Virus record (IMG/VR): IMGVR_UViG_2648501787_000002
From: a virus
Lineage: Duplodnaviria; Heunggongvirae; Uroviricota; Caudoviricetes
Reading direction: 5' to 3' (one strand)
DNA length: 9,468 nucleotides
Shown here: positions 1-9,468 of the stretch, one piece after another
Position numbering within the stretch: the stretch's first letter is position 1
Layout: every line of letters begins with the position of its first letter
Made by a program: the position numbers and the translations under genes
The notes under the pieces: model-generated
What the model saw: only the letters and a program-made list of their open reading frames with translations
The model's database searches: none
What the model was told of the DNA's origin: nothing

Positions 1-98
<98 letters not shown>

Positions 99-100
99 CC

Positions 101-400
101 TCAGAACTCCATCTGGATTTGTTCAGAACGCTCGGTCTTGCACACCGGGCGTTTTTTCTTTGTGATTTCATCAAGCGCATACTTAAAAGCCCTGCTAATC
201 GGGCTGATGTCTGATGCCATTCCGAAAGCACACAAGACCGAAGCAATAAATCTCCAGTCCGTTCTGCTTATCTTCGATTCATGACAGCCAATCATCTTTG
301 CCAGACCGCGCTGTGTAAGCGTTGACAGGTTAATGAGTAAATATGTTTCTGCGCGATCAACGTCGCGCTGTGATAGTTTGCTGTAACTTGTTTGTTCCAT
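101..400 (-). CDS. cII: CII-like transcriptional activator (lysogeny establishment); C-terminal end lambda-like, N-terminal two thirds divergent
   Basis: 99-aa ORF directly downstream of cro on the same strand. C-terminus KKRPVCKTERSEQIQMEF closely matches my recollection of lambda CII (NKKRPAATERSEQIQMEF). Central helix-turn-helix-like segment TQRGLAKMIGCHESKISR. Same size class as lambda CII. Confidence 0.75.
   Translation of the reverse strand: MEQTSYSKLSQRDVDRAETYLLINLSTLTQRGLAKMIGCHESKISRTDWRFIASVLCAFGMASDISPISRAFKYALDEITKKKRPVCKTERSEQIQMEF
129..160 (+). terminator. Rho-independent terminator of an oop-like antisense RNA, inside the 3' end of cII
   Basis: Stem cgctcggt / accgggcg (8 bp, one G-U wobble), loop cttgcac, then tttttt. 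Flanking sequence matches my recollection of the lambda oop RNA 3' region (CAGAACUCCAUCUGGAUUUGUUCAGAACGCUCGG...GGGCGUUUUUU). Confidence 0.5.
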
Positions 401-485
401 TTCTTAAGATTTCCAGTAGTGAATAGTTAGTTGAAAGGTATGCGTGGAAACGCATATGGCCTTAGTTGGTCAGATATCTTGGGAC

Positions 486-500
486 TCGCTTTGTCAGCGA
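486..500 (-). promoter_or_regulatory. nutR boxB-like RNA hairpin (N-utilisation site), with a possible boxA at about 518..531
   Basis: Minus-strand RNA reads UCGCUGACAAAGCGA: 5-bp stem with GACAA loop, just downstream of the cro stop. Same loop as the hairpin at 2678..2692 downstream of pL, with a compensatory change in the outer stem pair. Upstream CGCUAUUUUCACAA resembles boxA (CGCUCUUA). Confidence 0.6.
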
Positions 501-538
501 CGTAGGACGAATGTCCATTGTGAAAATAGCGGTGTTAC

Positions 539-748
<210 letters not shown>

Positions 749-763
749 TTAGTACATGCAACC

Positions 764-1553
<790 letters not shown>

Positions 1554-1560
1554 CACGTAA

Positions 1561-1998
1561 ATGATTAAAGAACGTATTTCTTATATCATTCCGATTGCGA
1601 TGGATGAAGGCAACCCAGTAACTCCAGTTCTTATCTATGAAATGGATAAAGACTCCCATGAAGTGGATCTATCATTTGGCGCTTTTTTTATCGGCCTTAA
1701 GGCTACAAAAAAATATTCCATAGGCATTGAGGTTTTCAATGCTCAAGAAATACCGATACCAATTGACACAAAACTGTACTCCAACCATAAGTTTTTTACG
1801 GTAGCAGAAGCCAACGATGGAGAAACCATCGTATCAACTTCTATGAGAATTAACTTCCCAAGGGTGAAAATTATCAAGCCTGGGATATTCGAAGTTAGAG
1901 CATCTCTGGTTAATCCTGATAAAGGCGAAGTAATTGATGTAAAAAGTTCGTTTTTTGACGTGAAGATAACAGGATCAGTTCGCGATGAGTTTAGATAA
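1561..1998 (+). CDS. Hypothetical soluble protein, first gene of a two-gene cargo module in the rexA-rexB slot
   Basis: 145-aa ORF starting 8 nt after the cI stop on the same strand. No recognisable resemblance to RexA or any family I know. Appears more AT-rich than cI. Overlaps the next ORF by 14 nt. Confidence 0.6.
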   Translation: MIKERISYIIPIAMDEGNPVTPVLIYEMDKDSHEVDLSFGAFFIGLKATKKYSIGIEVFNAQEIPIPIDTKLYSNHKFFTVAEANDGETIVSTSMRINFPRVKIIKPGIFEVRASLVNPDKGEVIDVKSSFFDVKITGSVRDEFR

Positions 1999-2356
1999 CA
2001 AGGTTGCTCAGCTTCGTCCAAATCAAAACATATCTCGCCCAATTGGACACTATTCCACTGATGATGCATACTCACGGCATGGTGGAGGAAACGGCGGAGG
2101 TAACATGCTTGAGGCTAGAGTTGCAAAGCTAGAGTCTGATGTTGAATACATCAAGCGCGATCTCGCTGAAGTAAAGTCAGATATAAAATCTGTAGATTCT
2201 CGTCTGTCAGGTATTGAGACAAGCATTAGCTCAGCAAAAATCACCATCAAGGCATCTGCGGTCGTTGTCAGTTTCGTGTTCGCATTTTGCGCCTACATTT
2301 TTGGAAGTTATGTTTCCAAAATCCTTGATGCCTTAAACGGACTCGTTCTTAAGTAA
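1985..2356 (+). CDS. Hypothetical small membrane protein: Gly-rich linker, coiled-coil segment and one C-terminal transmembrane helix
   Basis: 123-aa ORF with GGGNGGGN linker, heptad-like LEARVAKLESDVEYIKRDLAEVKSDIKSVDSRL, and hydrophobic stretch ASAVVVSFVFAFCAYIFGSYV. AGGAT lies 9 nt upstream of the ATG. Followed by a strong terminator. Not RexB-like (RexB is polytopic). Confidence 0.6.
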   Translation: MSLDNKVAQLRPNQNISRPIGHYSTDDAYSRHGGGNGGGNMLEARVAKLESDVEYIKRDLAEVKSDIKSVDSRLSGIETSISSAKITIKASAVVVSFVFAFCAYIFGSYVSKILDALNGLVLK

Positions 2357-2361
2357 CACAC

Positions 2362-2389
2362 AACCCGGCCTCAGCGCCGGGTTTTCTTT
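2362..2389 (+). terminator. Rho-independent terminator ending the cI-cargo (pRM) transcript
   Basis: Stem cccggc / gccggg (6 bp, extendable by two A-T pairs), loop ctcagc, then ttttcttt. Confidence 0.7.
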
Positions 2390-2546
2390 GCCTCACGATC
2401 CCCTTCACCCAATAACACATAACCAATTGTATTTATTTGAAAATTAATAGATACAACTCACTAAACATCGCAATTCAGATCTCTCGATCACCTCCCAAGC
2501 CACACCCCCCTGCAAAAAAATAAATCTATATAAAAAACATACAGAT

Positions 2547-2609
2547 AACCATCTGCGGTGATAAATTATCTCTGGCGGTGTTGACATAAATACCACTGGC
2601 GGTGATACT
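2547..2609 (+). promoter_or_regulatory. Left operator/promoter: oL3 (2547..2563), oL2 (2567..2583), oL1 (2591..2607); pL -35 TTGACA (2581..2586), -10 GATACT (2604..2609)
   Basis: Sequence ...ACATACAGATAACCATCTGCGGTGATAAATTATCTCTGGCGGTGTTGACATAAATACCACTGGCGGTGATACT matches lambda oL/pL as I recall it. Lambda similarity ends a few bases downstream of the -10. Confidence 0.9.
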
Positions 2610-2677
2610 AAACACATCAGCAGGACGCACTACTCACCAGGGCGGTGAATATACAACGATTCGAATATGAATCTACG

Positions 2678-2692
2678 GCGCTGACAAAGCGC
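2678..2692 (+). promoter_or_regulatory. nutL boxB-like RNA hairpin
   Basis: GCGCUGACAAAGCGC: 5-bp stem with GACAA loop, about 65 nt downstream of the expected pL start. Matches the P22-type boxB as I recall it and pairs with the site at 486..500. Confidence 0.65.
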
Positions 2693-2857
2693 AATAACCA
2701 AAGTGAACTTTGGGGTGTGGTGAAGGGTTCATGGACGGGAATATGTCGCACGTAAAGCGGCGAGGCCTGCGGGACTATTGCCGAATTGAAGTAGGCCGAA
2801 ACAGGTCGAAATGGGTCTCCCACCTACCACACCACCAAAGTTCATCAGGAGGTCTAT

Positions 2858-3241
2858 ATGACACGCAGAACTCAGTTCAAAGGCAATTCACGTTCTCGTC
2901 GTCGTGAGCGTTTAAAGGCAAAGGCATTAGCTAACGGCGTACTGGCCCGCGAAGAAGCAATAAGTTCAGAAGTATTACACCGCCCTACTCTAAGCAGAGC
3001 GCAGATTCAGGCTAAAGGTACTCACGAAACGCCTGAGCGCATAGAAGACGCTAAGCCAATTAAGTTCATGGCACAGGACGTGATCTGGCAACAGAAAGAA
3101 TACAGACGCAATCTGGAGCGAGCGGCCATTGTGTACGCGAATGAGTTTGGACATAAGCAACCAGAAACTGGTGTATGTCTTCCAAACGTAGCTCTTTACG
3201 CGGCAGGCTACAGGAAATCAAAACAACTGACAGCGAGATGA
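2858..3241 (+). CDS. N: N-type transcription antitermination protein, P22 gp24-like rather than lambda N
   Basis: 127-aa ORF, first gene after pL/nutL. AGGAGG lies 5 nt upstream. N-terminal arginine-rich motif (GNSRSRRRERLKAKAL). C-terminus VALYAAGYRKSKQLTAR resembles the P22 gene 24 C-terminus (VALYAAGHRKSKQITAR) as I recall it. Confidence 0.75.
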   Translation: MTRRTQFKGNSRSRRRERLKAKALANGVLAREEAISSEVLHRPTLSRAQIQAKGTHETPERIEDAKPIKFMAQDVIWQQKEYRRNLERAAIVYANEFGHKQPETGVCLPNVALYAAGYRKSKQLTAR

Positions 3242-3284
3242 CGATACCCCGCCAACTAGGGCACTAACCGACAGGAGCATGACC

Positions 3285-3422
3285 ATGAATAACGATAACG
3301 AAGCACTTAAAGAAATGATTGCGAAACTTCTTGAAGATGCCCGCCGCCTTCAGGTAGTGGAGCCAAACGCAGGGACACAATCACGCATTGATGAAGCGAT
3401 GAAATTGCTCAAAGCAGAATAA
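3285..3422 (+). CDS. Hypothetical small protein (45 aa, predicted helical)
   Basis: ATG 7 nt after AGGAG; translates to MNNDNEALKEMIAKLLEDARRLQVVEPNAGTQSRIDEAMKLLKAE. Below the ORF-track length cut-off. Sits where lambda has ral but does not resemble Ral. Confidence 0.3.
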   Translation: MNNDNEALKEMIAKLLEDARRLQVVEPNAGTQSRIDEAMKLLKAE

Positions 3423-3456
3423 GCTCAGGCAGCAAACCACTTATTTGAGGTGAGAT

Positions 3457-3708
3457 ATGGAATTTCATGAAAGTGCGATTTATGATTTTCGCGCTAACGC
3501 AAATTCAGTAAAACCACTGCCAATTGCAGTTCTTTTTAAAACAATGGGGGCGTGGGCTGTTTTATGCTTCGCCTCTGATGACACTGACGCAAGAATGGCA
3601 ATAAGCCAAGAGATGGAGATGGACCCGACAAACGATGAATTCATAATTTATGGCGCTCCATCTAATTACTTACTTGATACCTGCAACATTTACAACAAGG
3701 CTGCCTGA
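3457..3708 (+). CDS. Hypothetical protein (83 aa)
   Basis: ORF with GAGGTGA ribosome-binding site upstream, same strand as the pL operon. No recognisable family. Confidence 0.5.
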   Translation: MEFHESAIYDFRANANSVKPLPIAVLFKTMGAWAVLCFASDDTDARMAISQEMEMDPTNDEFIIYGAPSNYLLDTCNIYNKAA

Positions 3709-3766
3709 TGGTGGCCTTTATTTTTGTCCGTAAATAATTTCATGCTTATTACAATCAAGGTGATAT

Positions 3767-4216
3767 ATGGAAGAACAAGCAAACAAGATTCTCGTAGAAC
3801 TACTGCAAAAAGCCAGTAATGGAATAGACGCGGCTGTTTCATTTAGCCAGGCACAGATTCCTGATGTTGTTCATCAGTTGCTGCTATGGAATATGGTTGA
3901 CAGTCTGATTAAAACATTAATAGCCATTCTAACAATCCCACTGGTTTTCTGGTTTATGAAGAAGCAGTGCCAAAGAGTTGAGACAGGTAAAATCGGTGAT
4001 GAAGGATACTCATGTGAGAGGGGAAATCCCAAATACAGGCCGACAATGGTTTGGGATAGCAAAGGAGATATTAACCTTCTTATCGTGCCATTGGTTGGAG
4101 TTTTGACTCTGTGGGGGATTTTTATTATTGGTGTAGTAACCAATATGACTTGGTTAAAAATTTGGCTGGCCCCAAAACTTTACCTTATCGAATATGCAGC
4201 ATCATTGGTTAAGTAA
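3767..4216 (+). CDS. Membrane protein with two predicted transmembrane helices; possible superinfection-exclusion (SieB-like) protein by position
   Basis: 149-aa ORF with AGGTGA ribosome-binding site. Hydrophobic segments LIKTLIAILTIPLVFWFM and LLIVPLVGVLTLWGIFIIGVV. Lambdoid phages carry sieB/ral-type genes just downstream of N. Functional call is positional only. Confidence 0.5.
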   Translation: MEEQANKILVELLQKASNGIDAAVSFSQAQIPDVVHQLLLWNMVDSLIKTLIAILTIPLVFWFMKKQCQRVETGKIGDEGYSCERGNPKYRPTMVWDSKGDINLLIVPLVGVLTLWGIFIIGVVTNMTWLKIWLAPKLYLIEYAASLVK

Positions 4217-4404
4217 TTTCAGGCCGTATAATCGTCCTTCATTTTTGGCATAAACAACAGAATAAATACTGCACTGTGTATTCATTCCAACGAGTGAATA
4301 CACGGAGCAATGTCGCTCGTAACTAAACAGGAGCCGACTTGTTCTGATTATTGGAAATCTTCTTTGCCCTCCAATGTGAGGGCGATTTTTTTGACGGAGG
4401 AATT

Positions 4405-4821
4405 ATGGAAATTACAGATATTCTGGTTAATCCAGATAATTACGACCGATTCAATATCTCTACTCAATCAGTTGATTTGGGTTGCGCAACTGTCAGCGCA
4501 TGGCTACTTAATGGTAAACAGTTGGATAAATGCCTTGATGCACATATGACGGTTAACAGCTTCCTTGCAGAAAAAACACACTGGCAAGATGCTGGAGGGA
4601 AATATGCTGGATGGCTTGAAAGCATGGGATTTGAATATCAATCTGATGAAGGTTGGTGGAGCCTTATAGCTGTAACGCCTGAGACAATAGAATGCTTCGT
4701 TAAATACTCAAACGACGATGACTATAAACACCAGGTGGATTCTGCGATAGAAAGATACAAAAGAAAATCGTTCAACCACGAAATATCATCAGTTCTTGAT
4801 TTCATAGAAATCTTCAAATAA
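4405..4821 (+). CDS. Hypothetical protein (138 aa)
   Basis: Probable start at ATG 4405 (GGAGG 5 nt upstream), in frame with the longer 4351 ORF in the track. No recognisable family. Confidence 0.5.
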   Translation: MEITDILVNPDNYDRFNISTQSVDLGCATVSAWLLNGKQLDKCLDAHMTVNSFLAEKTHWQDAGGKYAGWLESMGFEYQSDEGWWSLIAVTPETIECFVKYSNDDDYKHQVDSAIERYKRKSFNHEISSVLDFIEIFK

Positions 4822-4904
4822 GCCGCCAAGCGCGGCTTTACCGCATACCAATAATGCTTCACGAGAGGCATTTTCGTTATGCAATCAAATATAAGGAGTT
4901 ACCC

Positions 4905-5039
4905 ATGATGCACTTTCAGCTCGCGGGTAGCGGCGTCATGTCCGCTTTCTACCCGCACGAATCTGAATTATCACGCCGAGTTAAACAATTAATCAGAGCA
5001 GCAAAGAAACAACTGGAGGCGTTATGCGCAATGAAATAG
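4905..5039 (+). CDS. cIII: CIII-like small protein (candidate FtsH/HflB inhibitor that stabilises CII)
   Basis: Probable start at ATG 4905 (AGGAG upstream). 44 aa, MMHFQLAGSGVMSAFYPHESELSRRVKQLIRAAKKQL... Core resembles lambda CIII as I recall it (AIAGWPVAGCPSESLLERITRKLRDGWKRLI). Correct position in the pL operon. Confidence 0.5.
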   Translation: MMHFQLAGSGVMSAFYPHESELSRRVKQLIRAAKKQLEALCAMK

Positions 5040-5176
5040 CCATCAATCACCAGATGCTTCGTGCTGCACAAAACAAAGCAGTAATAGCCAGATTTATTGG
5101 TGATTCCAAAATGTGGCTTGAAGCAAATAAAGCGATGAAATCAGCTATCAACCTTCCGTGGTATCGCAGGAAATGA
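5024..5176 (+). CDS. Hypothetical small protein (50 aa), possibly Kil-like
   Basis: ATG 5024 with GGAGG upstream; overlaps the end of the cIII-like ORF. Translates to MRNEIAINHQMLRAAQNKAVIARFIGDSKMWLEANKAMKSAINLPWYRRK. Position (immediately after cIII) matches lambda kil. Similarity to Kil is from uncertain memory. Confidence 0.35.
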   Translation: MRNEIAINHQMLRAAQNKAVIARFIGDSKMWLEANKAMKSAINLPWYRRK

Positions 5177-5331
5177 GTTTTACAGATAACTGGTCAGACG
5201 AAGAATTCATTCGTCAGATGAAAGAATTAATCGGTAACGAAGGAGATATTCATGTCACTTGCAACCACAGTGAAGGAGAGCAAGTTACAGAGACGCATGT
5301 ACACGCAGAAAGCTCTCTGGTATCGCCATAA
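5173..5331 (+). CDS. Hypothetical small acidic protein (52 aa)
   Basis: ATG 5173 overlaps the stop of the preceding ORF (ATGA). Translates to MSFTDNWSDEEFIRQMKELIGNEGDIHVTCNHSEGEQVTETHVHAESSLVSP, about 11 acidic and 2 basic residues. Competes with the alternative-frame ORF 5252..5422. Confidence 0.3.
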   Translation: MSFTDNWSDEEFIRQMKELIGNEGDIHVTCNHSEGEQVTETHVHAESSLVSP

Positions 5332-5422
5332 TGGTGACCGCGAAGGAATGCGGGTATGCCTTAACTTGTCCCGAGTCGAAGTATTAAATCAGCGTTATTT
5401 CCTTGTGCCGTGTCCATTCTGA
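5252..5422 (+). CDS. Hypothetical small basic protein (56 aa), alternative frame to 5173..5331
   Basis: ATG 5252 lies 6 nt after AAGGAG. Translates to MSLATTVKESKLQRRMYTQKALWYRHNGDREGMRVCLNLSRVEVLNQRYFLVPCPF. Ends 8 nt before the annealase gene. I cannot tell which of the two overlapping frames is real, or whether both are. Confidence 0.3.
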   Translation: MSLATTVKESKLQRRMYTQKALWYRHNGDREGMRVCLNLSRVEVLNQRYFLVPCPF

Positions 5423-5430
5423 GGTGAATT

Positions 5431-6129
5431 ATGGATTTGAATAAATTCGATGAGCCATTCAGCCCCGAAGATATCGAATGGCGAATACAGCAAAGCGGTA
5501 AAACACGCGATGGCAAGGTGTGGGCTATGGTGCTGGCTTATGTCACGAACCGGGCAATCATGAAACGCCTGGACGATGTTTGCGGCAAAGCAGGATGGCG
5601 CAATGAATACCGCGATATTCCCAACAACGGCGGAGTTGAATGCGGCATATCAATCAAGATTGATTCCGAATGGGTAACCAAATGGGATGCTGCTGAAAAC
5701 ACGCAGGTAGAAGCCGTCAAAGGTGGTCGTTCCGGTGCAATGAAGCGTGCTGCCGTTCAATGGGGAATCGGTCGGTATCTGTATAACCTTGAGGAAGGTT
5801 TCGCACAAACATCTCTCGATAAAAAGCAGGGATGGCACAGGGCAAAACTGAAAGATGGAACAGGATTTTACTGGTCCCCTCCATCGCTGCCGGGATGGGC
5901 AATCCCAGCATCAGATAACAAACCATCACCAGAAAATACCAACCAGAAATCTCCATCGGTTGACTGCGAACAAATCCTGAAAGACTTCAGCGATTATGCG
6001 TCAACAGAAACTGACAAGAAAAAACTCATCGAGCGTTATCAGCGTGACTGGCAATTAATGGCTGGCAACGAGGAAGCGCAGGCTAAATGCGTTCAGGTAA
6101 TGAACATCAGAGTTAACGAACTAAAATAG
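5431..6129 (+). CDS. Single-strand annealing protein (Rad52/Erf-type recombinase) with a C-terminal extension
   Basis: 232-aa ORF with GAGGTGA ribosome-binding site. Contains AMKRAAVQWGIGRYLY, reminiscent of the Rad52 annealing-domain motif (KRALRSFGNALG in human Rad52). Immediately upstream of an SSB gene. C-terminal KKKLIERYQRDWQL region recalls P22 Erf from memory. Confidence 0.65.
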   Translation: MDLNKFDEPFSPEDIEWRIQQSGKTRDGKVWAMVLAYVTNRAIMKRLDDVCGKAGWRNEYRDIPNNGGVECGISIKIDSEWVTKWDAAENTQVEAVKGGRSGAMKRAAVQWGIGRYLYNLEEGFAQTSLDKKQGWHRAKLKDGTGFYWSPPSLPGWAIPASDNKPSPENTNQKSPSVDCEQILKDFSDYASTETDKKKLIERYQRDWQLMAGNEEAQAKCVQVMNIRVNELK

Positions 6130-6138
6130 GCGGCATAA

Positions 6139-6600
6139 ATGGCAAGCAGAGGCGTAAATAAGGTGATTATCCTTGGTCGGGTAGGACAAGACCCGGAAGT
6201 TCGATACTCACCATCAGGTACAGCGTTCGCTAACCTGACAATAGCCACGTCAGAACAATGGCGAGATAAAAATACTGGCGAGCAAAAGGAATTGACTGAA
6301 TGGCATCGTGTTGCTGTATCCGGGAAACTGGCTGAGGTCGTGGGGCAGTATGTGAAAAAAGGTGATCAGATTTATTTCGAGGGAATGCTGAGAACCAGAA
6401 AGTGGAAAGACCAGTCAGGGCAAGACCGTTACACAACCGAGGTTCATGTCGGAATTAATGGCGTGATGCAAATGCTTGGCGGCATTGGCGACAGCAAACA
6501 ACAAGCAGCCAGCAGGCAATCACAGAAGCCACAGCAGCAATCATCACCAGCACAACACAACGAACCTCCTATGAACTTCGACGATGAGATCCCATTTTAA
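6139..6600 (+). CDS. ssb: Single-stranded DNA-binding protein (SSB)
   Basis: 153-aa ORF. N-terminus [23 protein letters not shown] and [11 protein letters not shown] match E. coli SSB closely. Gln/Pro-rich linker and acidic tail NFDDEIPF (E. coli: DFDDDIPF). Confidence 0.92.
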
Positions 6601-6615
6601 TCATTGGGAGAAAAT

Positions 6616-7083
6616 ATGATCACTTGCAAAAAATGTGGAGAGAATAAACCACCTAATGGTTTTTATCCTAGAAATAAGGTGTGCAAGGAATGCACTAAAA
6701 AACGAGTAACTGAATATCAAAAAGGAATAGGAAAGCTAATACATAATAATGCTTGCAAAAAATATAACAAAAGCGAAAAGGGCAAGGTTGCATTAAGCAA
6801 AGCAAGAGAGAACTATCTGGAATCTCATCGCCAAAGACAGCAAGCAAGATGGTCAGTCAAACGGGCAATTAAATCTGGTAAGTTATGTAGACCAACAACG
6901 TGTCAGAAATGCAACAGCAAATGCCACCCAGACGCTCACCACTGCGATTACAGTAAACCTCTTGAAGTGATGTGGCTATGCAAAGCATGTCATGTTGAAT
7001 GGCACAAGCACAACAAGCCAATATATCCAGACGAGGAACCAGTAACTCTCCCCTTCCCTCGTCACGCTATTAACGCAATTTAA
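6616..7083 (+). CDS. Cys-rich zinc-binding protein with an HNH-endonuclease-like motif
   Basis: Probable start at ATG 6616 (GGGAG upstream; the track's 6604 start is a TTG). N-terminal CxxC...CxxC zinc ribbon; C-terminal CQKCNSKCHPDAHHCDYSKPLEVMWLCKACHVEWH fits an HNH pattern (H-x-D-H-H ... C-x2-C-H-x3-H). Confidence 0.5.
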   Translation: MITCKKCGENKPPNGFYPRNKVCKECTKKRVTEYQKGIGKLIHNNACKKYNKSEKGKVALSKARENYLESHRQRQQARWSVKRAIKSGKLCRPTTCQKCNSKCHPDAHHCDYSKPLEVMWLCKACHVEWHKHNKPIYPDEEPVTLPFPRHAINAI

Positions 7084-7096
7084 TCAGGAGAAAAAC

Positions 7097-7393
7097 ATGC
7101 CAGCGCCTTTGTATGGTGCGGATGACGCGCGCCGCTGTTCCGGCAATTCCGTATCGGAGGTGCTGGATAAATTCAGAAAAAACTACGATCGAATAATGTC
7201 TCTACCGCAGGAAACGAAAGAGGAAAAGGAATTTCGCCACTGTATATGGCTTGCAGAGAAAGAAGAACGCGAGCGAATTTACCAGACATCAATCCGACCA
7301 TTCCGCAAAGCCACATATACCCACTTCCCTGAATATATCGACCCGCGCCTGCGTAATTACCGCTCACGCTATGGCGCTATCAGTAATGACTGA
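7097..7393 (+). CDS. Hypothetical protein (98 aa)
   Basis: ORF with AGGAG ribosome-binding site, same strand as the operon. No recognisable family. Confidence 0.5.
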
Positions 7394-7403
7394 GGAATTT
7401 ACC

Positions 7404-7571
7404 ATGAGAGGACTTGCATACAATCCCGGCATTCTTCCGGCAGAAATGATTATTCGCCAGCGCGTAAAGCCAATGCCATCGAGAGAGGAATTGCTTAAGA
7501 GAAATTCTTTTCCGTCAGTGAATCAAAACAAATATCTGAATGCGATGTGGCGCAAAGGAGGCAACCAGTGA
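7404..7571 (+). CDS. Hypothetical small protein (55 aa)
   Basis: ATG 7404 with GAGGA upstream; in frame with the tail of track ORF 7251..7571. Its stop overlaps the next start (GTGA). Confidence 0.4.
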
Positions 7572-8374
7572 GCAAGATTGACTATCAGGTACTGCGTGCC
7601 AAGGCAGAAAAAGCAACGTGTGGTGTATGGTCGCTCGAATATGGAGAGGGCCGATTTGATGGTGATGATGCACTAATTCATCGCGAGGCTGCTGGATATA
7701 TTCCCATTTGCAGAATTGAAGGAGCGCATCCAGAAAGCGGTTTCGATGAAGATTTCCAAATGGAACAGCAGGCCAATGCTGAATTCATCGCCGCAGCCAA
7801 TCCGGCTACCGTCTTGGCGCTGCTTGGCGAGCTGGAAGCAGCAGAGAACAACCTTATTGATAGTGAATGCCATGTTGCTGAACTGGAAGAAGCGCTACGC
7901 GATAAGCAGGCGTTACTTGAAGCATCAGAAAAGCGCATAGCAGAACTGGAAGCCGAACTCGTAAGCCAAACTTACAAGTTGCCAGAATTAATCGAGGGCA
8001 TGGAAGTTTCCATTGATGTAAGCACTTGTGATGCTGATTTAGGTAATCGCTATTTCGGCACCGTCACCGAGGCGTTAGAACTTGATACTGCCAAGAATGG
8101 TTACATCCTCCTGGTTCAGGACGCAGAGCCAAACTTCGATGTAAATGGCAACTCTCCGGTAACTCCGGATGGTTGGATAAGCTGTAGTGATCGAATGCCG
8201 GATGATGGTCAGCACGTAATTATTTTATGTGATGGCGCATTCGTTCTTTATGCGCAATATCGAGACAGTGAGTTTTTTGATGTTGTCCGCAATGGTGAGG
8301 AGTTCTTCGAAACGCAGAGCCGCAATGTAACCCACTGGATGCCGCTACCGGAACCGCCGCAGGAGGTAAAGTGA
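7568..8374 (+). CDS. Ea22-like prophage protein (coiled-coil middle region, DUF551-like C-terminal domain)
   Basis: Probable GTG start at 7568, 6 nt after AAAGGAGG (track shows a longer 7547 start). N-terminus [21 protein letters not shown], central coiled coil ([47 protein letters not shown]), C-terminal [14 protein letters not shown]...HWMPLPEPP. Assignment is from memory of prophage Ead/Ea22-like proteins. Confidence 0.55.
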
Positions 8375-8658
8375 TGGACTCCTTCGCGAAATATACGATT
8401 ATTGACTGGATAGCATTCCTTCAGGTTTTGCTCATCTGGTTTTATATGGCTTACAGGAGTGGACAGTGGATTGTCAGTGTAGCCTGTAGCAGGGGATGGC
8501 GTTGGTGGAACCGAAAGAATAAAAAAGCACTGGCCTTGGATTCGTTTTACGAAGCATTCAATCTTAACAGCCTTCAGCCTGGTTCTGTCATTGTAGTCAC
8601 CACTCAAAGCGGCATGACGATACAAATTCACAAGCCAAAGGAGGAAGGTCGTGGCTAA
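8374..8658 (+). CDS. Hypothetical small protein with one predicted N-terminal transmembrane helix
   Basis: ATG 8374 lies 7 nt after AGGAGG and overlaps the upstream stop (TGATG). Hydrophobic IIDWIAFLQVLLIWFYMAY segment. Confidence 0.45.
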   Translation: MDSFAKYTIIDWIAFLQVLLIWFYMAYRSGQWIVSVACSRGWRWWNRKNKKALALDSFYEAFNLNSLQPGSVIVVTTQSGMTIQIHKPKEEGRG

Positions 8659-8932
8659 CCTGCAACTTGCCGTCAAAGGTGAATACTTCAACGCCATGAT
8701 TCGCGGGGAGAAAACGGAAGAGTATCGCCTGTGCAATGACTACTGGAATAAACGCCTCGTTAATCGTAAGTATGACCGCCTGATTATCACAAAGGGATAT
8801 CCGAAGCGCGACGATTCCAGCCGCAGAATTGACGTCCCGTATGACGGATATGAAATCAAGACAATCACACATCCGCACTTCGGCGATAAACCGGTAACGG
8901 TATTCGCGATAAAGGTGAATATCAATTGCTAA
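8651..8932 (+). CDS. Small PUA/ASCH-like (DUF3850-type) protein
   Basis: GTG start 6 nt after AGGAGG. N-terminal KGEYFNAMIRGEKTEEYR resembles the ASCH/DUF3850 signature (Y-F-x-x-I-x-x-G-x-K-T-x-E-x-R) as I recall it. Confidence 0.45.
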   Translation: MANLQLAVKGEYFNAMIRGEKTEEYRLCNDYWNKRLVNRKYDRLIITKGYPKRDDSSRRIDVPYDGYEIKTITHPHFGDKPVTVFAIKVNINC

Positions 8933-8956
8933 ATTAGTAGCATAGCATAAAGATGC

Positions 8957-8980
8957 TTGCATTAATGAAGTGTGTATAAT
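8957..8980 (+). promoter_or_regulatory. Candidate sigma70 promoter (consensus -10 TATAAT at 8975..8980; TTGCAT at 8957..8962)
   Basis: Perfect TATAAT preceded by TGTG, in an AT-rich intergenic region upstream of ORF 9046..9237. The TTGCAT element is only 12 bp upstream, so it is unlikely to be the true -35. Confidence 0.3.
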
Positions 8981-9045
8981 AACGCCTCATCAATAGTAAA
9001 CTACTGAAATAGCAAAAAAAATGCATATTAAAGAGGATTCAAAAA

Positions 9046-9237
9046 TTGAAAATGTTCATGCAAATAGACAGACGCATAGATATTAATGGCAATTCATACT
9101 TAGTTAGATGCGAAGAGAGGCCTAACGGTGAGTGGCGTGTATATGATATTGACCGTAAGATCAATATCAGCACCATGAACAAAGACACTGCCTTTGATGA
9201 ATGGAAAGCTGAAGCTAAAAAACAACATAATTCGTAA
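9046..9237 (+). CDS. Hypothetical small protein (63 aa), stand-alone moron-like gene
   Basis: TTG 9046 or ATG 9052 start downstream of AAGAGGA. Bracketed by a candidate promoter and a rho-independent terminator. No recognisable family. Confidence 0.4.
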   Translation: MKMFMQIDRRIDINGNSYLVRCEERPNGEWRVYDIDRKINISTMNKDTAFDEWKAEAKKQHNS

Positions 9238-9280
9238 AATTACAAAAACCCTAACCAATTGATGGATTTCTTTTATCTGA

Positions 9281-9305
9281 ACTCGCTACGGCGAGTTTTG
9301 TTTTA
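9281..9305 (+). terminator. Rho-independent terminator
   Basis: Stem actcgc / gcgagt (6 bp), loop tacg, then ttttgtttt. Confidence 0.65.
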
Positions 9306-9368
9306 TGGAGATGATAAATGAACTTCCGAGTTACAGGTGAATGGAATGGAGAGCCATTCAACAGGGTT

Positions 9369-9468
<100 letters not shown>

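What the first reader, a model, noticed from the sequence alone, without database searches (positions are those of the whole stretch)
2697..2852. Long-range pairing in the N leader ending just before the N ribosome-binding site
GTGAACTTTGGGGTGTGGTG (2703..2722) is nearly complementary to CACCTACCACACCACCAAAGTTCATC (2821..2846). Pairing would form an imperfect stem of about 20 bp enclosing about 100 nt and ending 1 nt before the AGGAGG of N. In lambda, an RNase III-processed structure in the N leader modulates N translation. This looks like an analogous element built from different sequence.
Basis: partly seen in the sequence, partly recalled or inferred. Interest (0 to 1): 0.4.

Follow-up and report, generated by a model that had tools for sequence, protein, structure and literature searches.

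The report
RNase III-type hairpin in N leader
The long-range stem is real and evolutionarily conserved, and it is this phage's copy of the well-known phage lambda leader hairpin that RNase III cuts to control synthesis of the antiterminator N, so it is a known kind of element with a few new details.

Summary
G2703-G2722 pairs with U2825-U2845 in 20-21 bp, with one bulged A (2834). The stem closes about 100 nt and ends 1 nt before the AGGAGG of N. Chance does not explain it: the longest helix in 500 shuffles was 16 bp.

The stem is homologous to the lambda N-leader RNase III hairpin, not merely analogous. Twelve nt of the 5' arm and 13 nt of the 3' arm are identical to lambda, including the bulged A. 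Only the interior differs.

Across 15 lambdoid leaders with at least 9 unrelated interiors, 96% of stem positions stay paired and 12 of 20 pairs show compensatory changes. Many G.U pairs place the structure on the pL-sense RNA.

The most likely role is the one described for lambda. The stem holds nutL next to the N ribosome site, and RNase III cutting separates them and raises N translation. Cleavage itself was not testable here.

New details:
- A short upstream copy (CCAAAG, 2698-2703) can pair with the base of the 5' arm. This local hairpin covaries and would end flush at the predicted cut.
- In some P22-like phages the interior is a tRNA-like gene.
- The module is unannotated in 499 of 5426 complete E. 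coli genomes.

Verdict: new member of a known kind, moderate interest.

The parts
2581..2609 (+). pL promoter (TTGACA, 17-nt spacer, GATACT). The transcript start is inferred at about 2616 (ATCAGCAGGACGC, as in lambda).
   Evidence: Promoter scan. Sequence identity to lambda pL and the start of its transcript.
2626..2692 (+). nutL region. The boxB hairpin GCGCUGACAAAGCGC is at 2678-2692.
   Evidence: The homologous stretch is annotated nutL in GQ499361. A second copy with a compensated closing pair, UCGCUGACAAAGCGA, lies at the nutR position 486-500 on the minus strand. Identity of this boxB with P22 boxB is seen in L136.
2698..2703 (+). X: an upstream copy (CCAAAG) of the base of the 3' arm. 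It can pair with Y (2708-2713) to form a local 6-bp hairpin with loop UGAA. This hairpin competes with the lower helix.
   Evidence: Folds of the nascent RNA and of the 5' fragment. Present in all leader types. Covariation of X with Y.
2703..2722 (+). 5' arm of the long stem. Lower helix 2703-2713 includes Y = CUUUGG at 2708-2713. Upper helix 2714-2722 (GGUGUGGUG) is the GU-rich boxC-like element.
   Evidence: Twelve nt are identical to the lambda 5' arm.
2723..2824 (+). Interior of the hairpin, a 102-nt multibranched cassette. It contains one covarying helix, 2764-2770 with 2801-2807.
   Evidence: Nearly invariant in 186 held loci (26 variants). Helix covariation. Unrelated to the interiors of lambda, P22 and others. 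No Rfam or tRNA match.
2825..2845 (+). 3' arm of the long stem: upper helix 2825-2833, bulged A2834, lower helix 2835-2845 (Z = CCAAAG at 2835-2840).
   Evidence: Thirteen nt are identical to the lambda 3' arm.
2713..2714 (+). Predicted RNase III cut on the 5' arm, between G2713 and G2714.
   Evidence: Inference only. Transferred from the lambda sites +88/+89 and +197/+198, which I recall from memory and could not verify in a readable paper. The geometry fits a 2-nt 3' overhang.
2836..2837 (+). Predicted RNase III cut on the 3' arm, between C2836 and A2837. It would leave N mRNA starting AAAGUUCAUCAGGAGG.
   Evidence: Inference only, on the same basis as the 5' cut.
2847..2852 (+). Shine-Dalgarno AGGAGG of N, 1 nt after the last stem pair.
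   Evidence: Accessibility calculation.
2858..3241 (+). N antiterminator gene (127 aa, 933W/HK97 type).
   Evidence: Pfam PF25694 N_peptide, E = 9.8e-16. Annotated N in HK97, HK106 and Stx phages.

Best explanation
The element is this phage's version of the RNase III-sensitive hairpin of the lambdoid pL/N leader RNA.

Steps that are shown:
- The pL transcript starts at about 2616 and first makes nutL (boxB 2678-2692).
- About 130 nt later the 3' arm (2825-2845) pairs with the 5' arm (2703-2722). The result is a 20-bp helix with one bulged A.
- This helix places nutL 10 nt from one end and the N Shine-Dalgarno 1 nt from the other.

Steps inferred from lambda:
- In this closed form, the N/Nus complex held at nutL sits next to the ribosome site. 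The helix also abuts the site and leaves no single-stranded landing space. N translation is therefore low and autoregulated.
- RNase III cuts both strands near the bulge (predicted 2713|2714 and 2836|2837). The cut detaches nutL and the helix from the N message. The message then starts with a 10-nt unstructured leader before AGGAGG, and N synthesis rises.
- Because RNase III level follows growth conditions, this links early phage development to host physiology.

An added inference from this work:
- A short upstream repeat (CCAAAG, 2698-2703) pairs with the base of the 5' arm before the 3' arm is made.
- It would pair again after the cut, giving the released nut RNA a flush 3'-terminal hairpin.
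For: - The stem is predicted in the MFE and centroid folds and is far longer than chance allows.
- The arms are identical to lambda's over 12 and 13 nt, including the bulged A.
- Lambda-nutL/lambda-N leaders occur naturally with this window's hairpin in place of lambda's own.
- In 15 leaders, 96% of stem cells are paired and 12 of 20 pairs carry compensatory changes. No shuffle of 500 reached this, and slid controls gave 37-47% pairing.
- G.U pairs are frequent, which fits RNA of the pL-sense strand only.
- The position is constant: after boxB and before the first ribosome site.
- N is confirmed by Pfam, pL by scan, and boxB by its nutR twin.
[quoted passage not shown] That paper cites Wilson 1997 and Wilson 2002. 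Steege 1987 on N-leader processing is cited in PMC5371410.
- The local X-Y hairpin forms in folds of the nascent RNA and of the 5' fragment and covaries.
Against: - No cleavage data exist for this leader type, and none could be produced here.
- The lambda cut positions are recalled from memory, because Wilson 2002 and Steege 1987 were not readable.
- The stem does not itself sequester the Shine-Dalgarno, so any effect on translation must be indirect.
- In some relatives the same hairpin precedes small ORFs that are not N. Control of N cannot therefore be its only role.
- The P22 leader fragment P22B reported in PMC13397905 has ends that do not match a lambda-like double cut.
- P22-type and L019-type leaders carry a mismatch in the lower helix.
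Confidence: 0.75

Rival explanations
1. Processing stalk for a cargo RNA. On this reading the main purpose of the stem is to excise the enclosed RNA, as the RNase III stems of rRNA operons excise 16S and 23S. The interior (2723-2824) would be a functional small RNA, and the effect on N would be secondary.
For: - At least 9 unrelated interiors sit between the same stem.
- One interior is a tRNA-like gene: ARAGORN calls tRNA-Pro and Rfam RF00005 scores 38.1 bits against a threshold of 29.
- P22 yields an abundant 96-nt RNA from this region (PMC13397905).
- The window-type interior is almost invariant in 186 loci that carry several different nutL and N types, and it has one covarying helix.
- In rrn operons, boxC forms part of the RNase III stem around 16S (PMC8632103).
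Against: - The interiors share no sequence, size (32 to about 200 nt) or fold, so no common cargo function is apparent.
- The window interior matches no Rfam family or tRNA model.
- Its near-invariance may only reflect recent horizontal spread.
- The ends of P22B do not match excision at the stem.
Confidence: 0.12
2. A structural element that works without RNase III. The helix would only act as a fixed barrier next to the ribosome site, as a folding scaffold holding nutL near the site, or as a shield against RNase E. It would not be cleaved.
For: - The helix abuts the Shine-Dalgarno.
- The leader is strongly structured.
- Some relatives have mismatches at or near the predicted cut region.
Against: - The arms, the bulge and the helix length are the same as in lambda, where I recall RNase III cleavage of the N leader being established. 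The work is cited.
- Selection keeps about two helical turns of double strand in every variant. From general knowledge, this is the size RNase III needs.
Confidence: 0.08
3. A DNA-level element. The inverted repeat would mark the boundary of a mobile or recombining cassette, that is, a mosaic junction. The RNA pairing would be a by-product.
For: - Different interiors are flanked by the same arms.
- The same interior is linked to different nutL and N genes.
Against: - Compensatory changes preserve pairing rather than sequence.
- G.U pairs would be A.C mismatches on the other strand or in cruciform DNA.
- Orientation and position relative to pL, nutL and the ribosome site are constant.
- No transposase, target duplication or other copy occurs in the window.
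Confidence: 0.04
4. Chance complementarity in a GU/CA-rich leader.
For: None beyond the low-complexity look of GGUGUGG / CCACACC.
Against: - 0 of 500 shuffles reach 20 bp; the maximum was 16.
- Covariation is present.
Confidence: 0.01

Closest known systems
RNase III-sensitive hairpin (rIII) of the phage lambda N leader. References: Steege et al. 1987, Kameyama et al. 1991, Wilson et al. 1997 and 2002. These are cited in PMC5725501 and PMC5371410 but could not be read here.
   Same: - Same place: after nutL and before the N ribosome site on the pL transcript.
- Same architecture: two helical segments separated by a bulged A on the 3' strand.
- Identical 12-nt and 13-nt arm cores.
- The same upstream X repeat that can pair with the base of the 5' arm.
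   Different: - The interior is 102 nt and unrelated to lambda's 90 nt.
- The lower helix is 11 bp here against 8 in lambda, using different outer pairs (GUGAAC/GUUCAU against GGC/GCU).
- The stem ends 1 nt before the Shine-Dalgarno here and 8 nt before it in lambda.
- boxB and N are of the P22/933W type, not lambda's.
- Cleavage is not demonstrated for this variant.
RNase III processing stems of E. coli rRNA operons, where boxC of the leader pairs with sequence downstream of 16S.
   Same: A nut-like antitermination signal is followed by a GU-rich boxC. BoxC forms the 5' strand of a long-range RNase III helix that excises what lies between (PMC8632103; nut = boxA, boxB, boxC in PMC2724277). 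A tRNA-like insert in some P22-like leaders sharpens the parallel.
   Different: - The enclosed RNA here is about 100 nt with no known function, not an rRNA.
- The downstream product is an mRNA whose translation is affected.
- No sequence homology to rrn was tested.
Other RNase III sites that control translation or stability of messages, such as lambda cIII, adhE, rnc and pnp leaders.
   Same: RNase III acts on a structured 5' leader and changes expression of the downstream gene (PMC5371410).
   Different: In the cIII and adhE cases the ribosome site itself is buried in the structure. Here the Shine-Dalgarno is outside the helix, and the effect is expected to go through separation from nutL.
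P22B, a small non-coding RNA from the P22 gene 24 leader (PMC13397905).
   Same: - It comes from the same leader position in a related phage.
- It contains the interior and the 3' arm of the P22 version of the hairpin.
   Different: - The P22 interior is of another sequence class.
- The reported ends (5' inside the interior, 3' 16 nt before the start codon) do not coincide with a double cut in the stem.
- No function is shown.

Membership tests
Lambdoid N-leader RNase III hairpin (lambda rIII) | Lies on the pL transcript between nutL and the ribosome-binding site of the first gene (N). | tested here: met
   pL at 2581-2609, boxB at 2678-2692, stem at 2703-2845, SD at 2847-2852, N at 2858-3241.
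Lambdoid N-leader RNase III hairpin (lambda rIII) | Long-range pairing gives about two turns (about 20 bp) of imperfect double-stranded RNA. | tested here: met
   11 bp, then bulged A2834, then 9 bp. Shuffles reach at most 16 bp.
Lambdoid N-leader RNase III hairpin (lambda rIII) | Sequence homology of the arms to the lambda site. | tested here: met
   CTTTGGGGTGTG and CACACCACCAAAG are identical to lambda, with the same bulged A. Natural lambda-nutL/lambda-N leaders carry this window's hairpin.
Lambdoid N-leader RNase III hairpin (lambda rIII) | Pairing is maintained in evolution (covariation). | tested here: met
   96% of cells paired, 12 of 20 pairs with changes on both sides, 0 of 500 shuffles as high. 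Three leader types with a shifted register or a 1x1 mismatch were left out of that alignment.
Lambdoid N-leader RNase III hairpin (lambda rIII) | Cleaved by host RNase III on both strands. | not testable with these tools
   No cleavage data found for HK97, 933W or this leader. The papers on lambda were not readable.
Lambdoid N-leader RNase III hairpin (lambda rIII) | Cleavage raises N translation by relieving repression exerted from nutL. | not testable with these tools
   Only the geometry is shown (nutL 10 nt from the stem, SD 1 nt from it). The stem does not bury the SD.
tRNA or tRNA-like RNA (considered for the interior) | Match to tRNA covariance or heuristic models. | tested here: not met
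   The window gives no ARAGORN gene and no RF00005 hit even at E <= 10 on 2700-2850. The feature is met only in relatives L150, L151 and L175.
Any curated RNA family (Rfam 15) | Covariance-model match. | tested here: not met
   No hit at E <= 1 for the window or for the lambda, phi80 and P22-type leaders. Rfam therefore appears to hold no family for this element.
Intrinsic terminator | GC-rich hairpin followed by a U run. | tested here: not met
   The terminator scan finds none in 2600-2860. The stem is followed by CAGGAGG.

The most novel reading that the evidence does not exclude
The leader may contain a three-part device (X 2698-2703, Y 2708-2713, Z 2835-2840) whose main job is to release and protect the nut RNA.
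- Y pairs first with X, then with Z to build the RNase III helix.
- After the cut, Y pairs with X again. The nutL fragment that stays on RNA polymerase would then end in a flush 3' hairpin resistant to exonucleases.
- The helix would also serve as a general processing stalk with a swappable interior, which in some phages is a tRNA-like RNA.

Facts that point this way:
- In three independent lineages, compensatory changes preserve X-Y while leaving a mismatch in Y-Z.
- The hairpin travels with nutL even when the next gene is not N.
Probability: 0.3. Interest if true: 0.6.

Novelty: new member of a known kind. Interest (0 to 1): 0.38.

Why it matters
The element sits at the first regulatory step of early gene expression in HK97-like and Shiga-toxin phages. 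It is present in about 9% of complete E. coli genomes and is annotated in none of the records inspected.

The lambda RNase III switch turns out to be a conserved, covarying module shared by phages with different N proteins, nut sites and hosts. This extends a lambda-only model to medically relevant prophages. It also gives a clear target for testing how host growth state feeds into induction.

Two further points, if confirmed, would add to the textbook picture of N antitermination. One is the conserved alternative pairing X-Y. The other is the cassette-like interior, which includes a tRNA-like insert in some phages.

Tried and rejected
- **Rfam.** Searches of the window, of 2700-2850 at E <= 10, and of 16 related leaders found no family for this element. 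The weak hits (nhaA-II, bxd_1, TLS-PK2) are far below threshold and were rejected.
- **tRNA in the window.** ARAGORN on the window and on 7 relatives was negative. The idea that the window interior is a degenerate tRNA was dropped.
- **Coding potential of the interior.** An ATG at 2731 opens a 58-codon frame. In phi80 that frame stops early (TAA), and the substitutions do not look like those of a coding sequence. Rejected by reading.
- **Prophage anti-sRNAs.** AgvB/AsxR and the Pas sRNAs lie near PR'/Q, not in the N leader. Rejected.
- **Duplexfold shuffle test.** A shuffle test using duplexfold on the two leader halves was uninformative, because it allows huge loops. It was replaced by a helix-length test.
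- **RNAalifold interior structure.** It showed no compensatory pairs. An alternative with helix 2764-2770/2801-2807 has two. The rest of the interior fold remains unsettled.
- **Primary papers.** Attempts to read Wilson 1997 and 2002, Court 2013 and Bubunenko 2013 failed because they are not held. Searches for 'N leader' with 'RNase III' returned nothing.
- **Genome-contig scan with N.** It gave only 6 loci, though these supplied three new interior classes.

Full report
**Context**

The window is the immunity and early-left region of a mosaic lambdoid phage or prophage. Its closest records are HK106, HK97, mEp234 and Stx phages. On the + strand it carries, in order:
- a lambda-type cI (840-1553; Peptidase_S24 and HTH_3);
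- two unassigned ORFs;
- the lambda-type pL promoter, TTGACA-17-GATACT, at 2581-2609;
- a leader;
- a 127-aa N antiterminator at 2858-3241 (Pfam PF25694, E = 9.8e-16).

By identity with lambda (ATCAGCAGGACGC), the pL transcript should start at about 2616. The stretch homologous to 2626-2692 is annotated nutL in a 933W-like record. The boxB hairpin GCGCUGACAAAGCGC is at 2678-2692. It has a twin, UCGCUGACAAAGCGA, with a compensated closing pair at the nutR position, 486-500 on the minus strand.

**The observation**

It is correct. The folds of 2697-2852 and 2610-2880 both put G2703-G2722 against U2825-U2845. The register is:
- 11 bp (2703-2713 with 2835-2845);
- a bulged A2834;
- 9 bp (2714-2722 with 2825-2833).

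C2846 is the only base between the helix and AGGAGG (2847-2852).

Two tests rule out chance. The fold is more stable than every one of 200 shuffles (z = -3.6). A direct test of helix length gives 20 bp, against a mean of 10.9 (sd 1.4, maximum 16) in 500 dinucleotide shuffles of the leader.

**Homology to lambda**

The lambda leader reads GGCUUUGGGGUGUGUG ... CACACACC-A-CCAAAGCU. The window shares CUUUGGGGUGUG and CACACCACCAAAG exactly, including the bulged A. The stem is therefore homologous to the lambda N-leader hairpin, not an analogue built from different sequence.

What differs is the interior. It is 102 nt here and 90 nt in lambda, with no detectable similarity.

Nature has already performed the swap. 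CL707 and more than 20 IMG/VR contigs have lambda nutL and lambda N but this window's hairpin.

**Distribution**

The 156-nt module occurs in:
- 147 phage records, including HK97, HK106, mEp234, 933W-like and Stx1/Stx2 phages, phi80 and PA2;
- at least 120 IMG/VR contigs;
- 499 of 5426 complete E. coli genomes, never annotated in the listed hits.

It is linked to at least six different nutL/N combinations: 933W type, lambda, phi80, P22 type, and two further N families in L019 and L117.

**Covariation**

Leaders retrieved through N or nutL homology show the same stem around quite different interiors. These are Salmonella SPN9CC and SF10, ST2-8624/BP-4795, Enterobacter, and several metagenomic genomes.

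I built an arms-only alignment of 15 leaders (A1). Its pair counts are:
- 96% of 300 cells paired;
- 12 of 20 pairs with changes on both sides (for example G-C/A-U at 2715-2832, and several types at 2718-2721);
- 0 of 500 shuffles as high;
- 37-47% pairing when the partner strand is slid by 1-3 columns.

Many pairs are G.U. These would be A.C on the opposite strand, so the selected structure is RNA of the pL sense.

One caveat applies. Three leader types (L019/L015, L031, L133) have a 1x1 mismatch or a shifted register at the bulge. They were left out of A1.

**Interiors**

At least nine unrelated interior classes of 32 to about 200 nt occupy the same stem.

The window class is almost invariant, with 26 variants among 186 loci. 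Variation is concentrated in 2768-2803. One internal helix, 2764-2770 with 2801-2807, has two covarying pairs. The rest of its fold is not settled.

The window interior matches no Rfam family and no tRNA model. It does not look coding, since the frame opening at 2731 is closed early in phi80.

**Mechanism**

For lambda the literature states the following:
- nutL lies about 200 nt upstream of N;
- N with Nus factors at nutL represses N translation;
- simple occlusion cannot explain this;
- the intervening RNA is highly structured (PMC5725501, citing Wilson 1997 and 2002).

RNase III processing of the N leader is cited in PMC5371410 (Steege 1987). From my own knowledge of Wilson 2002, cleavage of the hairpin leaves antitermination intact but prevents N autorepression and strongly raises N translation.

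The window has the same layout in a tighter form. boxB ends 10 nt before the stem, and the Shine-Dalgarno begins 2 nt after it. The helix does not bury the Shine-Dalgarno. Its expected effects are therefore indirect:
- it holds the nutL complex at the ribosome site;
- it leaves no single-stranded landing region.

Transferring the lambda cut sites gives cuts at 2713|2714 and 2836|2837. The lambda sites (+88/+89 and +197/+198) are from memory, but their geometry fits a 2-nt 3' overhang. The processed N message would then begin AAAGUUCAUCAGGAGG. This step is inferred, not shown.

**A conserved alternative pairing**

Every leader type carries, between boxB and the 5' arm, a copy X of the base of the 3' arm. 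Here X is CCAAAG at 2698-2703, and it is identical to Z at 2835-2840. X can pair with Y (CUUUGG, 2708-2713) in a 6-bp hairpin.

Where Y has changed, X has changed to match but Z has not:

| Lineage | X | Y | Z |
|---|---|---|---|
| P22 type | CCAAAC | GUUUGG | CCAAAG |
| L019 | CCGAAG | CUUCGG | CCCAAG |
| L132 | CCACA | UGUGG | CCAAAG |

An arms-only test (A3) gives three core pairs with double changes and 0 of 500 shuffles as high. A scan of about 285 leaders finds X-Y fully paired in all major types. X was chosen as the best-pairing upstream word, which biases these counts. However, its position and its identity to Z are constant.

Folding predicts the X-Y hairpin in two situations: in the nascent RNA before the 3' arm exists, and at the very 3' end of the 5' cleavage product (2616-2713). 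The same holds in lambda, where X-Y spans +70 to +88. I therefore propose two roles for X-Y. It guides folding, and after the cut it caps the nut RNA that stays with the polymerase. This is speculative.

**The hairpin travels with nutL**

In several contigs the gene after the hairpin is a small ORF unrelated to N (L028, L034, L080, L188). This fits a role tied to nut RNA rather than only to N.

**tRNA-like insert**

In P22-like contigs L150, L151 and L175 the interior is a tRNA-like gene. ARAGORN calls it tRNA-Pro(GGG), 82 nt with an oversized anticodon loop. Rfam RF00005 scores 38.1 bits against a threshold of 29. Its acceptor stem is the conserved upper helix of the RNase III stem.

Only one GenBank phage in the collection carries it (Salmonella phage P6), and there it is unannotated.

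A 2026 paper reports an abundant 96-nt RNA, P22B, from the P22 gene 24 leader (PMC13397905). It covers the interior and the 3' arm of the P22 hairpin. Its ends do not fit a double cut in the stem.

Together with the known role of boxC in the RNase III stem around 16S rRNA (PMC8632103; boxC as part of nut sites, PMC2724277), this suggests the stem can act as a general processing stalk.

**Verdict**

The finding is real, and its kind was correctly guessed. It is a homologue, and the commonest variant, of a known lambda regulatory element. Hence the label 'new member of a known kind'.

The unverified step is RNase III cleavage and its effect on N in this leader.

The X-Y pairing, the cassette-like interiors and the tRNA-like insert are the parts that might be new. 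None is proven.

Noticed in passing
window 2698-2713 (X 2698-2703, Y 2708-2713), with Z at 2835-2840: An upstream direct copy of the base of the 3' arm can pair with the base of the 5' arm in a local 6-bp hairpin. Compensatory changes in the P22-type, L019 and L132 leaders keep this local pairing while leaving a mismatch in the long stem. The hairpin would end flush at the predicted RNase III cut.
   Followed up: yes
L150 342-423, L151 342-423, L175 342-423 (P22-like IMG/VR contigs); also Salmonella phage P6 OP265889 13179-13329: The interior of the gene 24 (N) leader hairpin is a tRNA-like gene (ARAGORN tRNA-Pro GGG with an oversized anticodon loop; Rfam tRNA 38.1 bits). Its acceptor stem is the conserved upper helix of the RNase III stem. 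It is unannotated in GenBank.
   Followed up: partly
L131 about 560-690 (Enterobacteriaceae MGYG-HGUT-00110): Another interior class has a T-arm-like GUGG-UUCGACU-CCAC next to the 3' arm and a D-arm-like AGCUC-AACGGC-GAGCU after the 5' arm. It is not called a tRNA by ARAGORN or Rfam.
   Followed up: partly
L136 251-346 (phage P22 leader): The published small RNA P22B (PMC13397905) maps to the interior plus the 3' arm of the P22 version of this hairpin. Its ends do not match a lambda-like double cut.
   Followed up: partly
window 1-98 and 9371-9468: The two ends of the window are a perfect 98-nt inverted repeat. The matches to HK106 and HK97 cover only 145-9370. This may be an assembly artefact or a real terminal structure.
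   Followed up: no
window 1561-1998 and 1985-2356 (+): Two ORFs (145 and 123 aa) occupy the position of lambda rexA/rexB between cI and pL. They have no Pfam family above threshold (only a weak XhlA-like coiled-coil hit). They are candidate prophage-expressed exclusion or conversion genes.
   Followed up: partly
window 486-500 (-) and 2678-2692 (+): The nutR and nutL boxB hairpins share the loop UGACAAA but differ by a compensated closing pair (U-A against G-C). The boxB is identical to that of P22, although N is of the 933W/HK97 type.
   Followed up: partly
window 2613-2628; also L008, L022, L074, L132, L136 and others: The first nucleotides of the pL transcript (CATCAGCAGGACGC) are conserved in phages whose operators and promoters upstream are unrelated. 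This suggests a function for the 5' end of the leader itself.
   Followed up: no
L028, L034, L080, L188 (downstream of the hairpin): In these contigs the hairpin is followed by small ORFs of 39-67 aa that do not resemble N. In L188 gene 24 follows later. The hairpin therefore stays with nutL when a gene is inserted.
   Followed up: partly
L232 and L257 (933W-type N, IMG/VR): A variant has the same arms but an interior of about 200 nt that starts like the window's (GGTGTGGTGAAG). It has no Rfam or tRNA match.
   Followed up: no
window 1882-1922 and 4399-4439: A 41-nt direct repeat (73% identity) lies inside two different ORFs (1561-1998 and 4351-4821). It hints at a shared protein segment.
   Followed up: no
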